IMG/VR virus record: IMGVR_UViG_3300028914_000074
Location: 6,088 to 70,087 of that record
DNA: 64,000 nucleotides
From: a virus
Taxonomy: Duplodnaviria > Caudoviricetes
Reading direction: 5' to 3' (one strand)
Shown: one piece after another, positions 29,931-34,498 of the stretch
Layout of the letters: every line of letters begins with the position of its first letter
How positions within the stretch are numbered: position 1 is the stretch's first letter
The notes under the pieces: model-generated
Database searches by the model: none
The model's input: only the letters and a program-made list of their open reading frames with translations
What the model was told of the DNA's origin: nothing
Position numbers and translations under genes: made by a program

Positions 29931-30335
29931 TCACCCCACGAAATAATCTAATGTCAAATTGTATTTTGCCATGATCAGCGATTTTGCCATCTGTTCCAAC
30001 AAAGAATGCTCCATTGTGTCCAAATATTTTCCTTCGTATGTTCCGCTATTCATAAGCCAATTATAACGGCAATGAAGCAACTCATGGACAAGAATTTTCT
30101 CCGCACAATACTTCATTACTCTTTCGCCATAAAACTCTTTTTTGAGTATTCGTATAATGCAACTTCTATTCACAAGATCAAATTCATTCTCTCCGCAACA
30201 ATTTTCTTCTAAAAATTCATCCGGAGAAACCATCTTTGCTTTAATGATCCAATCCGTCAAAAACAGTTTCTCTTGCCACCATTTCAAACATTCCTGTAGT
30301 TGTTCTTCGGTTTCAAATTCTTCAATCGGTTTCAT
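29931..30335 (-). CDS. HExxH metallopeptidase-like protein
   Basis: ILVHELLHC. Confidence 0.55.
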   Translation of the reverse strand: MKPIEEFETEEQLQECLKWWQEKLFLTDWIIKAKMVSPDEFLEENCCGENEFDLVNRSCIIRILKKEFYGERVMKYCAEKILVHELLHCRYNWLMNSGTYEGKYLDTMEHSLLEQMAKSLIMAKYNLTLDYFVG

Positions 30336-30422
30336 TTCCTATTATCCTATCCGCAATCTTTTTAGCTGTTTCTTCGTATTCCCAATTTTTCAATATAATC
30401 ATACTTTCACGCAATGCTGATT

Positions 30423-30722
30423 CTATGCTTGCAACAAGAGCATTATATATGAATAAATCTTTTTTATTGCGGTTTTCAAGACTTTACAAGCTTGGTGTAC
30501 AGTTGTTACGTCAAACCGAAAGTCACATCTGCCTTGCATTTCAATATCCGGCGCACCTATGGTTTCAATAGTAAAACAGGGTACTTCGTCTGTTGATACA
30601 TGGAAATAAAGAGAACGAACTCTAGGAATTGCTTTTCCATCTATTTCAACGATTGTTCCGTACGGTGTTATTTCTTCGTTTTTGTTTTTTACAGATACTT
30701 TAGCCATTTCATATTCCTCCAA
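30423..30722 (-). CDS. hypothetical protein
   Basis: ORF track; RBS GGAGG. Confidence 0.5.
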   Translation of the reverse strand: MEEYEMAKVSVKNKNEEITPYGTIVEIDGKAIPRVRSLYFHVSTDEVPCFTIETIGAPDIEMQGRCDFRFDVTTVHQACKVLKTAIKKIYSYIMLLLQA

Positions 30723-30750
30723 TGCGGTTAAACTTATAGCAAACTAGCTA

Positions 30751-30813
30751 TGCGGAGGATGCCGGAATTGAACCGACCAATTACTCACCGCCAACGCACC
30801 ACTTCGATCCCCC
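30751..30813 (-). ncRNA. tRNA-like minihelix (acceptor + T arm only)
   Basis: GGGGGAT/ATCCTCC 7-bp acceptor, GTCGG-TTCAATT-CCGGC T arm; only ~29 nt between them. Confidence 0.55.
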
Positions 30814-30838
30814 AACATAATACAGTTTGCAAAAGCAA

Positions 30839-30911
30839 AGCTACCAGACGGAATCGAACCGCCAACCCATAGTTTACAAAACTATTGCGCTGCCTGTTGC
30901 GCTATGGTAGC
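30839..30911 (-). tRNA. tRNA-Thr(UGU)
   Basis: GCTACCA/TGGTAGC acceptor, ATAGT-TTTGTAA-ACTAT anticodon arm, GGTTCGATTCC. Confidence 0.9.
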
Positions 30912-31062
30912 GTGGGCAGTTTGCAAAATTGGGAAGTTTTACTTTAATTTGCACTTCATTACGATTCAGCCAAACACCTAGCTGACAACCAATTTTACCA
31001 TTTTTTATTTTCGTAGGGGTTAATCTGCTCACGCCCTATTATTCGGGATCTACCCGACCTCT

Positions 31063-31151
31063 AGCGTATGATTGGAATTGCACCAATGCTTCTATCACTA
31101 CCTTTTGAAAACGCATTTTCTAAGGTGAATGGAATTACCATTGCATACACT
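31063..31151 (-). ncRNA. tRNA-like RNA with non-canonical core
   Basis: GTGTATG/CATACGC acceptor, ATTGG-TGCAATT-CCAAT T-like arm; core is two hairpins without a 7-nt anticodon loop. Confidence 0.5.
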
Positions 31152-31344
31152 ACGGAAGAATGACCTACTTGAAAACTTCCAAGACAGATAAACTTCGTCA
31201 GGTGAGGTATTGGCCTATAACTACAGTCTATCAATCTTCTTACCTTCTTATCGAAACTTATTAGGTCACTTTTTCCGATGCTTTATTGTTGCTCGTCAGC
31301 AAATCCCAAGATTAAGGGAAACCAATAAAGACTTACACGGGTAA

Positions 31345-31398
31345 CACCTAGCCGGGCATTTGAAGCCCGTTTAATCACAGCCGTTTGCCGTACTAGGT
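31345..31398 (-). ncRNA. tRNA-like minihelix
   Basis: ACCTAGT/GCTAGGT acceptor-like stem, CGGGC-TTCAAAT-GCCCG T arm; ~54 nt total. Confidence 0.55.
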
Positions 31399-31419
31399 TT
31401 TGCATGGAGGGCTTAAAAT

Positions 31420-31491
31420 AACAAAGATGGGATTTGAACCCATGACTACGAAATTAAAAGTTTCGTACTCTGCCAACTGAACTATGAGAGC
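31420..31491 (-). pseudogene. tRNA-Lys(UUU) with unpaired acceptor stem
   Basis: D arm, CGAAA-CTTTTAA-TTTCG and T arm intact; 5' GCTCTCA cannot pair with 3' CTTTGTT. Confidence 0.7.
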
Positions 31492-31501
31492 AAATGTTAA
31501 A

Positions 31502-31590
31502 TCACAGCAGTTGGAATCGAACCAACATCAAGGGCATTCATGCGCTCTATCCCTTTATGCGCCAAAGCTTTGCCATTAAGCTATGCTGTG
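31502..31590 (-). ncRNA. tRNA-like RNA lacking a canonical anticodon arm
   Basis: Perfect CACAGCA/TGCTGTG, GCTT/AAGC D arm, GTTGG-TTCGATT-CCAAC; ~40-nt atypical central region. Confidence 0.65.
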
Positions 31591-31704
31591 CGACGAGGTA
31601 TTATGTTCACCTCACTCAACATATCCATAAGAGCTTTTTTGATTGATTCATACCTAGGATTGAATCGTTGAGAAATCTATTATTTGTTCTAAAAACTCAA
31701 CTAG

Positions 31705-31775
31705 AGCCAACCATCGGACTTGAACCGATATACCATGATTACAGGTCATGAGTCCTACCATTGGACGAGGATGGC
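31705..31775 (-). tRNA. tRNA-Thr(UGU), second copy with C33 and one acceptor mismatch
   Basis: GCCATCC/GGTTGGC, CATGA-CCTGTAA-TCATG, ATCGG-TTCAAGT-CCGAT. Confidence 0.7.
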
Positions 31776-31963
31776 ATACAACCCTATCTGATCTAATTCC
31801 AAAGAATGATAGTTTAGTGGGCTGTGTGCTTCACCGCCTTTCGGGCAAGTTACAAGGTATCCCACCTGTACGACTAACTTATCATGGCGCGCTTTCCATG
31901 ATTGTTTAGTCTGTAACATAAAACATCGCGCAATGTCTTATGTTATCCGCCTAAACTATCAAA

Positions 31964-32068
31964 ATCCCAAGACAAGGATTTACACCTTGCATGATTGGCT
32001 ACTCCCTCACTTTTCGTGGAAAAATGTCACCAATCTCGGTCAGCGTCTACCTATTCCGCCACTTGAGA
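31964..32068 (-). ncRNA. Leu/Ser-type tRNA-like RNA with long central insert
   Basis: TCTCAAG/CTTGGGA acceptor, class-II D arm GTGGCGGAATAGGTAGACGC, CAAGG-TGTAAAT-CCTTG; central GATTGG...CCAATC hairpin, 105 nt total. Confidence 0.6.
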
Positions 32069-32420
32069 TTGCAGTCCTTCCAAAGATTGTCTATCCATCT
32101 CATACTTTTCTAGGTACGGGACTTCGACTGTGAACCGTTCTCTGCATCGTGTATTTCATTTCTTACTCAAACCCGACCCCAGGCACCAGGCACAAATAGC
32201 CAAGCCACAGGCACCGGGCAAGTGCGCGTATGTACGCCAAACACGCTTTGCGCTTCTGATTCTCTCTCAGAAGTAAGAGAAGTGTTTTTATCCATGTTAC
32301 GCTTCATGCACAGTCAAATGCCCTGACTGCCGGGCCTCGTTAGTCACTAACGATAATGCCAACCGCTCTGCTTCGATTGGTAAGAGTGTTTTTATGGTGT
32401 TATCGCCTCACCATGTTAAA

Positions 32421-32494
32421 TTGCGGAGACAAGATTTGAACTTGTGATCTCTTGGCCATGAACCAAGCGAGAAACCAGACTTCTCTACTCCGCC
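32421..32494 (-). tRNA. tRNA-Met(CAU), initiator-like
   Basis: 1:72 mismatch (G:A), CTTGG-TTCATGG-CCAAG, 3' CTCCGCAA as in fMet tRNAs. Confidence 0.8.
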
Positions 32495-32725
32495 GTAACC
32501 GGGGACTTCTCATAGGTAGAAATCCCCGCTGTTCCCAAGAAACGCCGTTCTGCGGGAACGCTTTAGGCAGCTAACCTCTGATATACTGTTCCCTATCAGA
32601 CGGGAATGTGCCATTGTGGACACAAACCCCATCGGTGCCATTGAAGCACCTTTAACCAGGACTTATTCCTAATGGGTGAAAGGAGAAATCCGCAAAAGAT
32701 TTCTCAAGGAGATTGCAATCTCCAA

Positions 32726-32797
32726 CAGGGGTAATTGGAATCGAACCAATGTTGTCAGGGTCAAAGCCTACTGTAATAACCATTATACGATACCCCT
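32726..32797 (-). tRNA. tRNA-Gln(UUG)
   Basis: AGGGGTA/TACCCCT, loop CTTTGAC, ATTGG-TTCGATT-CCAAT. Confidence 0.85.
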
Positions 32798-32803
32798 TAA
32801 TTG

Positions 32804-32977
32804 TCAACCATTTTCGTCATTAGGTTGATTATAATACATATCAGCAACCTCTTTAACAAGGTTATGCTTCAACGCTTCTTCTACTGGAATCGGTTTTGTG
32901 TCCATGTAGTGTTCAGCGTATTTGTCCACATATTGTCGAAATTCTTTGTTGTTTTGGTATAACAGCCCTAAATCCAT
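32804..32977 (-). CDS. 57-aa hypothetical protein
   Basis: Hand-translated MDLGLLYQNNKEFRQYVDKYAEHY...; RBS AAGGAG. Confidence 0.6.
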   Translation of the reverse strand: MDLGLLYQNNKEFRQYVDKYAEHYMDTKPIPVEEALKHNLVKEVADMYYNQPNDENG

Positions 32978-33025
32978 TTAATCATCTCCTTTGGAATTAA
33001 GGCTATTATACCATTTTATTAGTAG

Positions 33026-33196
33026 TTAGTCAATATTCTCAACCACAATTCCGTTCTCAAATTCCTTTGCTACCTTCTCGGCAGACTTTTTATCATCCCA
33101 ACTTCCCCAATACCATAATTTCCCATCAACAAATCTTGCAACCACATATTGCCTTGGTTCCTTTGAAATGTTTTCTACTTTGACCTTGCATAACAT
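33026..33196 (-). CDS. 56-aa hypothetical protein
   Basis: Hand-translated MLCKVKVENISKEPRQYVVARFVDGKLWYWGSW... Confidence 0.6.
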   Translation of the reverse strand: MLCKVKVENISKEPRQYVVARFVDGKLWYWGSWDDKKSAEKVAKEFENGIVVENID

Positions 33197-33636
33197 ACTC
33201 TTTCACCTCTCTTTATTTGTTTTCTGTATTCTTTTCCGTATTGGCATAGCTTTTCGCTGTTTTTTTGGTAATACTCTTTCATAAATCGCAATACTTTCTG
33301 TTTGTTTATCTTATAGTATTCCCTCATGTATTCAGCGTTTTTCCTTTTTCGTTCTGAATCTCTTTTTGTTTTTAATTCTTTGTATTTCAGTTTTCGCTCA
33401 TCATCAGACAATGGTTTGATAAGATTATTAGGTTCAAATTCTCCTAAATCTGATACTTCTCCTACTTCCACGGCCTTAAAGTTGCCTTTCCATTTTCCGT
33501 CTTTTATGTGCCTTGCAAAAGTAGTAAGTGGAATACCCAAATAATCAGCCGTAGCTTGTCTCCCGGAAATATCGCATACAACTGGAAATTCATATTCGTC
33601 ATTTGTTACGATGCTGTATAGTTTTGTTATTGGCAT
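33175..33636 (-). CDS. hypothetical protein with basic C-terminus
   Basis: YSIVTNDEYEFPV; REYYKINK repeats. Confidence 0.55.
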   Translation of the reverse strand: MPITKLYSIVTNDEYEFPVVCDISGRQATADYLGIPLTTFARHIKDGKWKGNFKAVEVGEVSDLGEFEPNNLIKPLSDDERKLKYKELKTKRDSERKRKNAEYMREYYKINKQKVLRFMKEYYQKNSEKLCQYGKEYRKQIKRGERVCYARSK

Positions 33637-34498
33637 TAGTCACCATCCTTTAGAAAATCTTTAATGTCCATCTGTCCTTGTATTTCTTCATCAACAGGTG
33701 GATTCATAAAGTCAAATAAGTTCATCTGTGCCGTTTCACGATCAAGCCGTTCCTTTGCAAGTCTGTAATACTCAGGATCAATCTCAAAACCAACATACTT
33801 GTGGTTTGTATTCCTACAAGCGATTAGGCTGCTTGCGCTTCCAACGTGGGTATCAAGAATTATGTCACCGGGCTTTGCGTATTTGTTCAACAGCCATTCA
33901 TACAGTTTTATGGGTTTCTGCGTTGGATGGAATCTGTTTCCACTAGGGTCTTGTGGTGCGCATTCAAACACCTTTGCATTCTCGTTAAAACTTGTCCAAG
34001 CATATTCTGCCATTGCCATTGAAAAGCTGTCTGAAATAGTCAGTTTTCGCCAAACAACAAAGCATCTTGTCGGTGGAAGTTCAAAGTAATTCCCCCCCCA
34101 GATAATCTGGTTCCGTGAGACGCGAAAGAGTTCTTCAAAGTATTCTCTTCCGGGGGCAACGTCCCACGTGATGATTTTTTTGAGTATTTCTCTGCCAATG
34201 TTCCGCCTGTTCTCGTAATTCTTGTTCTTCTTCCGAAGTCCGAATGTGTAGTGTCGTGTTCTTGTACTTGTCGAAATGGCCTCCGAATCTGTTCCAAGGT
34301 TTCCCACCCCCCCAGTACATCAAGGGTTTTCGCGTTCTGATGGTATTTACTGAACCAGCCCTTGCAACCGCCGCTTTCCGTAAATCCTGCTCCGTATGGA
34401 GGGTCAACTATGGCAAGATCAAAGTAATTGTCTGGAAATTCCTTCATTCCCTCAAGGCAATCCATCAAATAAAACCCAAAATCAAGCATTTTCTGCAT
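33636..34498 (-). CDS. N6A/N4C DNA methyltransferase (beta class), interrupted by a frameshift
   Basis: DLAIVDPPYG in ORF 34040..34498; HPTQKP, ILDTHVGSASS, GFEID in ORF 33636..34307; joined by a -1 shift at A7 or G7. Confidence 0.85.

What the first reader, a model, noticed from the sequence alone, without database searches (positions are those of the whole stretch)
30723..32800. 2-kb non-coding island where non-canonical tRNA-like RNAs outnumber intact tRNAs
There are only four plausible tRNAs (Thr x2, Met, Gln). Alongside them are one broken Lys, five elements that keep an acceptor stem and T arm but have lost or replaced the anticodon arm, and several hairpin-dense segments, all on one strand with no credible ORFs. 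Stems retain pairing, including G-U pairs, which argues for selection on structure. Possible roles: RNase P/Z processing punctuation for small RNAs, decoys for anticodon nucleases or T-box/RelA sensing, or synthetase mimics.
Basis: partly seen in the sequence, partly recalled or inferred. Interest (0 to 1): 0.74.

Follow-up and report, generated by a model that had tools for sequence, protein, structure and literature searches.

The report
Phage island of anticodon-less tRNA look-alikes
A phage from ruminant gut carries a 2-kb gene-free cluster in which four ordinary-looking tRNA genes are outnumbered by six small RNA genes that keep only the upper half of a tRNA and cannot read codons. At least four of them are preserved by compensating mutations in other phages, so they are working RNAs whose job is unknown, not dead genes.

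Summary
ARAGORN and Rfam find Gln, Met, two Thr, one tRNA body with 35 nt in place of the anticodon arm, and a Lys with no acceptor stem.

A scan for a 7-bp acceptor stem next to a T arm finds six hits in the island, against 0.04 in shuffles. It finds one other hit per strand in all 64 kb.

Six elements lack a decodable anticodon arm:
- Two belong to a 53-nt "mini" family found in at least 113 viral contigs. Its stems are 97% paired and 10 of 12 pairs covary. It has no true copy in 185,579 prokaryote genomes.
- One belongs to a large "leucine-tRNA shell with variable insert" family, with 108 distinct copies, some unannotated in Lactobacillus phages.
- One (F) is conserved with covariation in close relatives.
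- One (C) has two distant shell-mates, and one (H) has only an identical copy.

The broken Lys is a recombination chimera.

The islands of relatives are mosaics of these cassettes. The mini persists where all tRNAs are gone.

These are most likely non-decoding RNAs matured like tRNAs. Their function is unknown. The closest precedents are the tRNA-like stable RNAs of phages T5 and T4. This scan has already reported such RNAs on other DNA.

The parts
33005..33033 (-). Sigma-70-type promoter-like site (11/12, TG-extended -10) upstream of the small ORF and the island
   Evidence: the same arrangement (small ORF, then island) is seen in relatives L004, L148 and L150-L155
32804..32977 (-). 57-aa ORF of unknown function that always precedes the island in relatives
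   Evidence: no family; homologous ORF in L004 9464-9637
32726..32797 (-). tRNA-Gln(UUG)
   Evidence: ARAGORN; Rfam 56.7 bits
32626..32677 (-). Element B': 52-nt 'mini' tRNA look-alike. It has a 7-bp acceptor stem (first pair mismatched here), A8, a 4-bp hairpin, a 7-nt A-rich linker and a T arm, but no anticodon arm
   Evidence: orthologues in L147, L148, L150, L151, L153, L154, L155 with compensatory changes
32421..32494 (-). tRNA-Met(CAU) with a G1.A72 mismatch and G37
31964..32068 (-). Leu-like shell RNA. It has a class II tRNA-Leu D arm, a 7-bp acceptor stem, a 6-bp T stem with a TGNAAAT-type T loop, and a ~53-nt extended hairpin in place of the anticodon and variable arms
   Evidence: (z -2.4); orthologue in L150/L151 with compensatory changes; metagenome contigs keep the shell with other inserts (table 5)
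31704..31775 (-). tRNA-Thr(UGU)-like, with C33 and one acceptor mismatch; no homologue in close relatives
31502..31590 (-). Element C: perfect acceptor, D and T arms, with a 40-nt centre that has no 5-bp stem and 7-nt loop
   Evidence: (44.4 bits, 35 nt in place of 17); two shell-mates with other acceptors and other centres, L304 and L305
31420..31484 (-). Broken tRNA-Lys(UUU): D, anticodon and T arms are intact, but the 5' strand does not pair with the 3' strand. It is a recombination chimera
   Evidence: the 3' 28 nt are identical to an L148 element whose own 5' strand pairs perfectly
31345..31398 (-). Element E: 54-nt 'mini' tRNA look-alike, the type member in this window
   Evidence: z -3.6; orthologues in L004, L031, L147, L148, L150, L151
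31063..31150 (-). Element F: acceptor stem, D-like hairpin, long hairpin with a 4-nt loop in place of the anticodon arm, and a T arm with loop TGCAATT
   Evidence: orthologues in L147, L148, L150-L153, where the distal hairpin differs but still pairs
30839..30911 (-). tRNA-Thr(UGU), the best-scoring tRNA (66 bits)
   Evidence: conserved in L147, L148, L150, L151
30753..30813 (-). Element H: 61 nt, with a 7-bp acceptor stem holding a G3.U70 pair, a 29-nt middle and a T arm. It ends about 30 nt before the ribosome-binding site of the next gene
   Evidence: the only homologue is an identical copy in L148; a pattern scan found no others
30423..30707 (-). First gene downstream of the island (94 aa from the ATG at 30707), followed by a 134-aa ORF and the terminase large subunit at 29926-28181

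Best explanation
The island is one transcription unit that mixes a few tRNA genes with a larger number of genes for non-decoding, tRNA-shaped RNAs.

Each of these RNAs keeps the acceptor stem stacked on the T arm, and usually a small D-like hairpin that can form the tRNA 'elbow'. That is the part of a tRNA measured by RNase P, RNase Z and the CCA-adding enzyme. The anticodon arm is either deleted (mini types B' and E, and H) or replaced by a hairpin (F, the Leu-like shell, C).

I infer that the host's tRNA-maturation enzymes cut them out of the precursor, that they receive a CCA end, and that they accumulate as stable small RNAs that cannot enter decoding.

Their job most likely depends on proteins that recognise the upper half of a tRNA. 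The mini type would act as a bare decoy or ligand. The shell types would act as processing and stability frames that display a variable hairpin.

Shown: the shapes, their excess over chance, their conservation with covariation, their family membership, and a tRNA-like 3' flank.
Inferred: processing, stability and CCA addition.
Speculative: the decoy or display function.
For: 1. Geometry far beyond chance: 6 strict acceptor+T hits in 2 kb against 0.04 in shuffles.

2. Mini family:
113 of them have the whole architecture.
- On 26 distinct sequences, 97.1% of cells pair and 10 of 12 pairs show double changes. The covariation score is 0.711, against 0.19 for shuffles and at most 0.125 for slid controls. 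The U7.G66 wobble is kept in 24 of 25.
- The same pattern in 596 Gb of prokaryote genomes gave 30 hits, and none has the pairings.

3. Leu-shell family: at least 118 loci and 108 distinct copies. The acceptor stem is 7/7 in 94 and the T stem 6/6 in 95. There are 64 different acceptor hexamers, and slid controls give 2.2-3.1 of 7 pairs. Nearly every insert is different.

4. Cassette conservation: in relatives whose terminase is 78-95% identical, B', E, F and the Leu-like element are 76-97% identical, while the spacers do not align.

5. The mini outlives the tRNAs. It stands alone upstream of the terminase genes in L004, L031, L036, L055 and L118, where ARAGORN finds no tRNA. Their terminases are only 28-56% identical to one another.

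6. Same 3' context as real tRNAs: no encoded CCA, and T at position 74 in 94% of minis against 89% of ARAGORN tRNAs in the same loci. CCA is the known anti-determinant of RNase Z, and RNase P and the CCA enzymes measure from the elbow (PMC4919913).

7. Precedent: the T5 and T4 tRNA clusters carry annotated stable RNAs of unknown function. T5 RNA1 and RNA2 are labelled tRNA-like, and RNA1 has a Leu-type D arm plus a large insert.
Against: - There is no direct evidence of transcription, processing or stability. The one RNA-library contig (32341-32005) could be precursor RNA or DNA carry-over.
- H has no informative homologue, and C has only two shell-mates, so either could be recent debris.
- The shell T loops replace the near-universal T54-Psi55-C56. 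F has G at position 55, and the Leu-like element has G55 with T at position 56. This may weaken the elbow that the processing enzymes read.
- The Leu-like shell has a 13-bp acceptor/T stack rather than 12 bp.
- The phage encodes no partner protein of its own: no CCA-adding enzyme and no Ro60.
- The inserts have no antisense target in the phage.
Confidence: 0.65

Rival explanations
1. The odd elements are decaying tRNA pseudogenes and recombination debris of a shrinking tRNA island, with no function of their own.
For: - The broken Lys is exactly that: a chimera joined inside the T arm.
- L147 keeps only the 3' half of the Met gene next to an HNH endonuclease gene.
- The islands are clearly mosaic.
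- H and C lack informative close homologues.
Against: - B', E, F and the Leu-like element show compensatory changes and are better conserved than their flanks.
- The mini and shell families span hundreds of contigs with dozens of different but always paired acceptor stems.
- The mini survives in phages that have lost every tRNA.
Confidence: 0.1
2. They act only in cis, as cutting sites. RNase P and RNase Z cleave at them to separate the upstream small-ORF message, spacer RNAs and the downstream packaging-gene message, and the excised RNA has no role of its own.
For: - H ends about 30 nt before the ribosome-binding site of the next gene. In L150 the last tRNA ends 16 nt before that gene.
- Solitary minis sit between an upstream gene and the terminase operon.
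- A single promoter lies upstream.
Against: - One tRNA would do the job, yet the window keeps two mini paralogues and four other designs.
- E and F abut in L148 and L150, so nothing is released between them.
- In the Gln-mini-Met arrays, real tRNAs already flank the mini.
- Conserved features beyond the minimal substrate need another explanation: the U7.G66 wobble, the A-rich linker, and the C-rich leader motif.
Confidence: 0.12
3. They are charged with amino acids and serve outside normal decoding: alanine for H through its G3.U70 pair (as in the tRNA-like domain of tmRNA), and leucine for the shell.
For: - H has a G3.U70 pair.
- The shell keeps a tRNA-Leu D arm, and 62% of copies have A at the discriminator position.
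- From general knowledge, AlaRS and bacterial LeuRS do not read the anticodon.
Against: - The mini's discriminator varies among close orthologues (A, C, G, T).
- The shell's discriminator is not A in 38% of copies, including this window's.
- ARAGORN finds no tmRNA, and there is no tag reading frame.
- H's discriminator is G and it has no informative homologue.
Confidence: 0.05
4. They are DNA-level sites, such as phage attachment sites copying a host tRNA 3' end, or packaging signals next to the terminase genes.
For: - They lie next to the terminase genes.
- Phages often integrate into tRNA genes (PMC9897764).
Against: - Both strands of each stem are present and covary.
- G.U wobbles, including the conserved U7.G66, pair only on this strand as RNA.
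- No true copy of the mini exists in 185,579 prokaryote genomes, so it is not a copy of a host tRNA end.
Confidence: 0.02

Closest known systems
Phage T5 RNA1 and RNA2 (NC_005859 30501-30644 and 32959-33083, annotated 'tRNA-like stable RNA with unknown functions')
   Same: They are encoded among the tRNA genes on the same strand. RNA1 has a class II Leu-type D arm, a T arm, paired ends, and a large insert where the anticodon arm should be. This is the same design as the window's Leu-like shell.
   Different: The T5 RNAs have canonical T loops and are 125-144 nt long. There is no sequence similarity to the window's elements. Nothing like the 53-nt mini is annotated in the 3-kb stretch of the T5 tRNA region that I inspected.
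Phage T4 species 1 and species 2 RNAs (rnaC 139 nt, rnaD 119 nt)
   Same: They are small stable RNAs of unknown function at the end of the T4 tRNA cluster. rnaC ends in a canonical T arm.
   Different: They are much larger and have no clean 7-bp acceptor stem in the predicted fold. They are not homologous to these elements.
Canonical tRNA (Rfam RF00005)
   Same: Shared features are the 7-bp acceptor stem stacked on a 5-bp T stem with a 7-nt T loop, a CCA-less 3' flank starting with T, and co-location with tRNA genes.
   Different: There is no 5-bp anticodon stem with a 7-nt loop. Five of the six elements give no Rfam tRNA match even at E<=10.
tRNA-like domain of tmRNA (RF00023)
   Same: It has an acceptor stem plus a T arm without an anticodon arm. 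H also carries the G3.U70 pair.
   Different: There is no tag-coding part and no pseudoknots, and ARAGORN reports no tmRNA. The minis lack G3.U70.
Bacterial Y RNA-like YrlA RNAs (PMC4201824)
   Same: They are non-coding RNAs that mimic tRNA, and they are also found in phages.
   Different: In YrlA the RNA ends form a stem bound by Ro60, and the genes lie next to a Ro60 gene. Here the ends form the acceptor stem, the phage has no TROVE-domain gene, and there is no Rfam hit.
mascRNA from MALAT1 and the tRNA-like RNAs of murine gammaherpesvirus 68 (from general knowledge, not tested here)
   Same: They are tRNA-shaped RNAs that are cut out by RNase P and/or RNase Z, receive CCA and are not aminoacylated. 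The herpesvirus RNAs serve as frames linked to hairpins.
   Different: They come from eukaryotic systems and keep an anticodon-like arm. They share no common ancestry with these elements.

Membership tests
Canonical tRNA (RF00005) | Covariance-model score at or above the 29-bit gathering threshold over the full model | tested here: not met
   B', E, F, H and the Leu-like element give no match at E<=10. C scores 44.4 bits, but only by skipping 35 nt. The broken Lys matches only model positions 8-63.
Canonical tRNA (RF00005) | 5-bp anticodon stem with a 7-nt loop and U33 | tested here: not met
   Sequence inspection and folds of all six elements.
Canonical tRNA (RF00005) | 7-bp acceptor stem stacked on a 5-bp T stem with a T loop | tested here: met
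   The Leu-like element has 7+6 bp.
Mini tRNA look-alike family (defined here) | 7-bp acceptor stem ending in U7.G66, then A8, a 4-bp hairpin with a 4-7-nt loop, an A-rich 7-8-nt linker, and a 5-bp T stem with a TTCAAAT- or TTCAATG-type loop; 49-54 nt in all | tested here: met
   E and B' align with 24 other distinct members. 97.1% of cells pair.
Leu-tRNA shell with variable insert (defined here and in earlier reports of this scan) | tRNA-Leu-type D arm, T loop TGNAAAT, 6-bp T stem, 7-bp acceptor stem, and a 41-65-nt insert that differs between phages | tested here: met
   The element at 32068-31964 fits the pattern that retrieved at least 118 loci. Pairing statistics are, and the insert swap is seen, table 5, and.
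tmRNA | tRNA-like domain joined to a tag reading frame and pseudoknots | tested here: not met
   ARAGORN tmRNA search found none. No Rfam tmRNA hit.
YrlA / Y RNA | Ro60-binding stem and a neighbouring Ro60 (TROVE) gene | tested here: not met
   No TROVE domain in the 70-kb phage record. No Rfam hit.
tRNA pseudogene or integration remnant | Only part of a tRNA, no pairing partner for the retained strand, and no compensatory evolution | tested here: not met
   Not met for B', E, F and the Leu-like element. Met for the broken Lys. Inconclusive for H and C.
T5 RNA1/RNA2-type stable RNAs | Experimentally detected stable RNA released from the tRNA-cluster transcript | not testable with these tools
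   Only one RNA-library contig overlaps the island. End mapping needs raw small-RNA reads from an infection.

The most novel reading that the evidence does not exclude
The 53-nt mini, together with the C-rich CCUCC-like motif just upstream of it, is a phage-specific minimal 'tRNA top half' unit. It has been kept at the head of the packaging operon while the terminase diverged to about 30% identity. It would act in trans in one of two ways. It could be a decoy that soaks up a host immune protein or enzyme that grips the acceptor end or elbow of tRNAs. Or RNase P cleavage could release a C-rich leader able to pair with Shine-Dalgarno sequences. The shell types would be natural 'tRNA scaffolds' that display fast-evolving hairpins in the same arms race.
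Probability: 0.25. Interest if true: 0.85.

Novelty: new variant of a known kind. Interest (0 to 1): 0.66.

Why it matters
Phage tRNA clusters are usually read as codon-usage helpers or as spare parts against tRNA-cutting defences. In this island and its relatives, the best-conserved members cannot decode at all.

Stable tRNA-like RNAs of unknown function have sat in the T4 and T5 annotations for decades. These data show that such RNAs form large, structured, phage-restricted families that standard tRNA finders and Rfam miss. One family is pared down to about 53 nt. Another carries a different insert in almost every phage.

Because the shell family occurs in cultured Lactobacillus plantarum phages, the old question of what these RNAs do becomes directly testable. 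The elements also inflate 'non-coding' space and cause false or missing tRNA calls in phage annotation.

Tried and rejected
- Rfam at E<=10 over 30300-33400: only weak chance-level hits besides tRNA, and no GOLLD, ROOL, tmRNA or Y RNA.
- GenBank phage search with the whole island: only tRNA-Met-like hits.
- Pattern scans of viral contigs for F and for H: zero hits.
- Search for a phage-encoded CCA-adding enzyme or Ro60: none.
- PHROG and Pfam searches of the flanking small ORFs: nothing above threshold.
- Antisense complementarity of the inserts and minis to the rest of the phage: no better than shuffles.
- RNA evidence: of the four runs laid, the single RNA library gave one exact 337-nt contig over 32341-32005 and nothing elsewhere in the island. 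That proves neither expression nor silence.
- Spacer folding: only two of six spacers beat shuffles, and not in a strand-specific way. The 350-nt spacer 32420-32071 did not stand out (z -0.8).
- Supplementary tables of the viral structured-RNA catalogue (PMC10690425) are not held, so I could not check whether these families are listed there under anonymous numbers.
- Literature searches for anticodon-less tRNA-like RNAs in phages found no description.
- I did not build a covariance model or use the complex or structure predictors, because no protein partner is known.
Full report
**What is there**

The window is part of a 70-kb IMG/VR virus record. The flagged stretch lies between a 57-aa ORF (32977-32804) and the genes leading to the terminase large subunit (29926-28181, PHROG terminase). 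Everything is on the minus strand. A strong promoter-like site (11 of 12 positions, TG-extended) sits at 33033-33005, and no convincing terminator lies inside the island.

ARAGORN and Rfam agree on the following:
- tRNA-Gln, tRNA-Met and two tRNA-Thr
- an 89-nt tRNA body in which 35 nt replace the 17-nt anticodon arm
- a Lys(UUU) core that matches only model positions 8-63, because its 5' strand cannot pair with its 3' strand

Two of the 'good' tRNAs are themselves odd. Thr 31775-31704 has C33 and an acceptor mismatch. Met has G1.A72 and G37.

**Is it more than chance**

I scanned for a 5-bp T stem with a T-loop motif, followed directly by a 7-nt strand that pairs 7/7 with a strand 15-120 nt upstream. 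The island gives six hits on the minus strand, against 0.04 per shuffle. The rest of the 64 kb gives one hit per strand, and the plus-strand hit is the antisense of a tRNA.

With one mismatch or one offset allowed, two more elements join. That makes six non-decoding acceptor+T elements:
- B' (32677-32626)
- the Leu-like element (32068-31964)
- C (31590-31502)
- E (31398-31345)
- F (31150-31063)
- H (30813-30753)

Rfam does not report B', E, F, H or the Leu-like element as anything, even at E<=10.

**Relatives**

Terminase homologues led to 28 viral loci. Through the large protein collection they also led to nine contigs whose terminase is 83-95% identical.

BLAST of the island against these loci shows a mosaic:
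- B', E, F, the Leu-like element and Thr 30911-30839 recur as discrete 50-100-nt cassettes at 76-97% identity.
- They appear in different combinations and orders, and the spacers mostly do not align.
- Met, Thr 31775-31704 and C have no counterpart in these relatives.

Metagenome contigs from cattle and goat gut runs match the island in the same cassette-wise way.

The alignments show compensatory changes:
- In E, the first acceptor pair is A-U, G-C or U-A, and the fourth T-stem pair is G-C or A-U.
- In B', acceptor pairs 4 and 6 and T-stem pairs 3 and 5 switch between different Watson-Crick pairs.
- In F, acceptor pair 2 is U.G, C-G or U-A. One D-like pair is G-C, A-U or G.U. The distal half of the long hairpin is replaced by different sequences that still pair.
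- In the Leu-like element, two acceptor pairs, two T-stem pairs and one pair of the insert stem change on both sides.

The broken Lys is different. Its last 28 nt are identical to an L148 element whose own 5' strand pairs perfectly, so the window's copy is a chimera joined in the T arm.

**The mini family**

E and B' share one architecture:
- a 7-bp acceptor stem
- a single A
- a 4-bp hairpin
- a 7-8-nt A-rich linker
- a T arm, then the acceptor 3' strand

113 of them have the complete architecture, with many unrelated acceptor sequences.

On 26 distinct sequences:
- 97.1% of cells pair.
- 10 of 12 pairs show changes on both sides.
- The covariation score is 0.711, against 0.19 for shuffles and at most 0.125 for slid partners.
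- The closing U7.G66 wobble is kept in 24 of 25.

As a negative control, the same pattern gave 30 hits in 596 Gb of prokaryote genomes. None has a paired T stem together with a paired acceptor stem, so those are chance matches. The family was therefore not seen in cellular genomes.

The mini occurs in two settings:
- It follows tRNA-Gln and precedes tRNA-Met in several unrelated arrays, as it does in this window.
- It stands alone upstream of the terminase genes in L004, L031, L036, L055 and L118, where ARAGORN finds no tRNA. The terminases of those phages are only 28-56% identical to one another and to the window's.

The mini is thus the most persistent member of the island.

**The Leu-shell family**

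The element at 32068-31964 combines a tRNA-Leu-type D arm with a T loop of the form TGNAAAT. A pattern joining the two with a 35-65-nt gap hit at least 118 viral loci. Among 108 distinct copies:
- The acceptor stem is 7/7 in 94 and the 6-bp T stem is 6/6 in 95.
- There are 64 different acceptor hexamers.
- Slid controls pair only 2.2-3.1 of 7 positions.
- Almost every insert is different.

Metagenome contigs that match only the two shell halves of the window's element, with other letters between them, show the same insert swapping in ruminant gut samples (table 5). Copies lie unannotated in cultured Lactobacillus plantarum phages.

C has two shell-mates with the same D and T arms but other, perfectly paired acceptor stems and other centres. 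F was not found outside the close lineage, and H was found only as an identical copy.

Relatives' islands hold further uncalled acceptor+T elements, including 58-60-nt tRNAs with the whole anticodon arm deleted. That scan also picks up AT-rich noise outside the islands.

**How it probably works**

The retained part is exactly what RNase P, RNase Z and the CCA-adding enzymes measure: the acceptor/T stack and the elbow. An encoded CCA is the anti-determinant of RNase Z (PMC4919913).

None of the minis encodes CCA. T follows the discriminator in 94% of minis, against 89% of ARAGORN tRNAs in the same loci and 63% of shells.

I therefore infer that they are excised and finished like tRNAs from one precursor and accumulate as non-decoding RNAs.

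Aminoacylation as a conserved property is unlikely for the mini, because its discriminator base varies among close orthologues. It remains possible for H (G3.U70) and for some shells (A73 in 62%).

Pure punctuation does not explain abutting elements, paralogue retention or the conserved non-stem features. A trans-acting role through proteins that grip the tRNA upper half is my best guess but is untested. The shells would serve as frames for variable hairpins. I found no partner gene in the phage and no antisense target.

**Unexplained**

A CCUCC-like, anti-Shine-Dalgarno-like motif lies within 16 nt upstream of the mini in 24 of 39 distinct loci. The comparison rates are 8.7% of tRNA leaders, 2.7% of shell leaders and 8.2% of background. 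In L036 the leader matches the 3' end of Firmicute 16S rRNA, as I recall that sequence, at 12 of 13 positions. I have no tested mechanism for this.

**Comparison with what is known**

The annotated T5 genome lists RNA1 and RNA2 as 'tRNA-like stable RNA with unknown functions' inside its tRNA region. RNA1 folds with a Leu-type D arm, a T arm and a large insert. T4 lists rnaC and rnaD, stable RNAs at the end of its tRNA cluster, and rnaC ends in a T arm. So the kind is known: stable tRNA-like RNAs in phage tRNA clusters, with function unknown.

The new points are the 53-nt mini design, the size and covariation of the two families, and their persistence relative to tRNAs.

I found no paper describing them. 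A catalogue of viral structured RNAs mentions tRNA-like candidates and 14 motifs upstream of terminase genes without details, and I could not check it.

Earlier reports of this scan describe the same Leu-shell family and other anticodon-less look-alikes on other DNA. This is therefore a further, well-supported instance rather than a first sighting.

**Verdict**

Four of the six elements are demonstrably selected RNAs, one flagged element is debris, and the function is open.

Noticed in passing
window 32678-32691 and 31399-31411; L036, L031, L145, L125-type loci: A CCUCC-like (anti-Shine-Dalgarno-like) motif sits 0-13 nt upstream of the mini element in 24 of 39 distinct loci. The rate is 8.7% for tRNA leaders and 2.7% for Leu-shell leaders. 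In L036 the leader resembles the 3' end of 16S rRNA.
   Followed up: partly
L122, L125, L131, L139, L071 (between the mini and tRNA-Met): In several ~50-85-kb viral contigs, the spacer after the mini holds a conserved 7-bp hairpin with compensatory changes. It may be another small structured RNA.
   Followed up: no
L148 1124-1204: A tRNA-shaped element with a perfect acceptor stem but a 6-nt 'anticodon' loop, which ARAGORN calls tRNA-??? with a 2-nt anticodon. It is the intact counterpart of the window's broken Lys 3' half.
   Followed up: partly
L147 367-943: An HNH endonuclease gene lies directly next to a remnant holding only the T arm and 3' acceptor strand of the tRNA-Met gene. This suggests endonuclease-linked turnover of island cassettes.
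   Followed up: no
proteins P0008, P0009, P0021, P0023, P0028 (terminase homologues of 916-924 aa); L155 2711-5461: Some close relatives carry a terminase large subunit about 340 aa longer, with a LAGLIDADG domain hit. This suggests an intein or an inserted homing endonuclease.
   Followed up: no
window 33636-34498 (minus strand): Two overlapping ORFs in different frames both hit DNA methyltransferase families. The gene may be frameshifted or phase-variable, as another first-stage note also proposed.
   Followed up: no
window 32005-32341: A bovine-gut metatranscriptome run holds one 337-nt contig identical to this stretch, which covers a spacer plus the 5' two-thirds of the Leu-like element. 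It is the only part of the 3 kb laid that this RNA run covers.
   Followed up: partly
L013 8640-8699, L014 9218-9277, L154 9517-9574, L155 2222-2279: 58-60-nt elements in which the entire anticodon arm is deleted. Those in L013 and L014 keep an ordinary tRNA D arm, and those in L154 and L155 have a D-like hairpin. All lie in the tRNA islands of related phages and ARAGORN does not call them.
   Followed up: partly
GenBank Lactobacillus plantarum phages (e.g. NC_006936 36482-36672, NC_019489 3849-4192): Leu-shell RNAs are present, but no feature is annotated under the match.
   Followed up: partly
window 32420-32250: Two direct repeats of a ~20-nt motif (AACATGG ... ATAAAAACACT) lie in the spacer after tRNA-Met. 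Their meaning is unknown.
   Followed up: no
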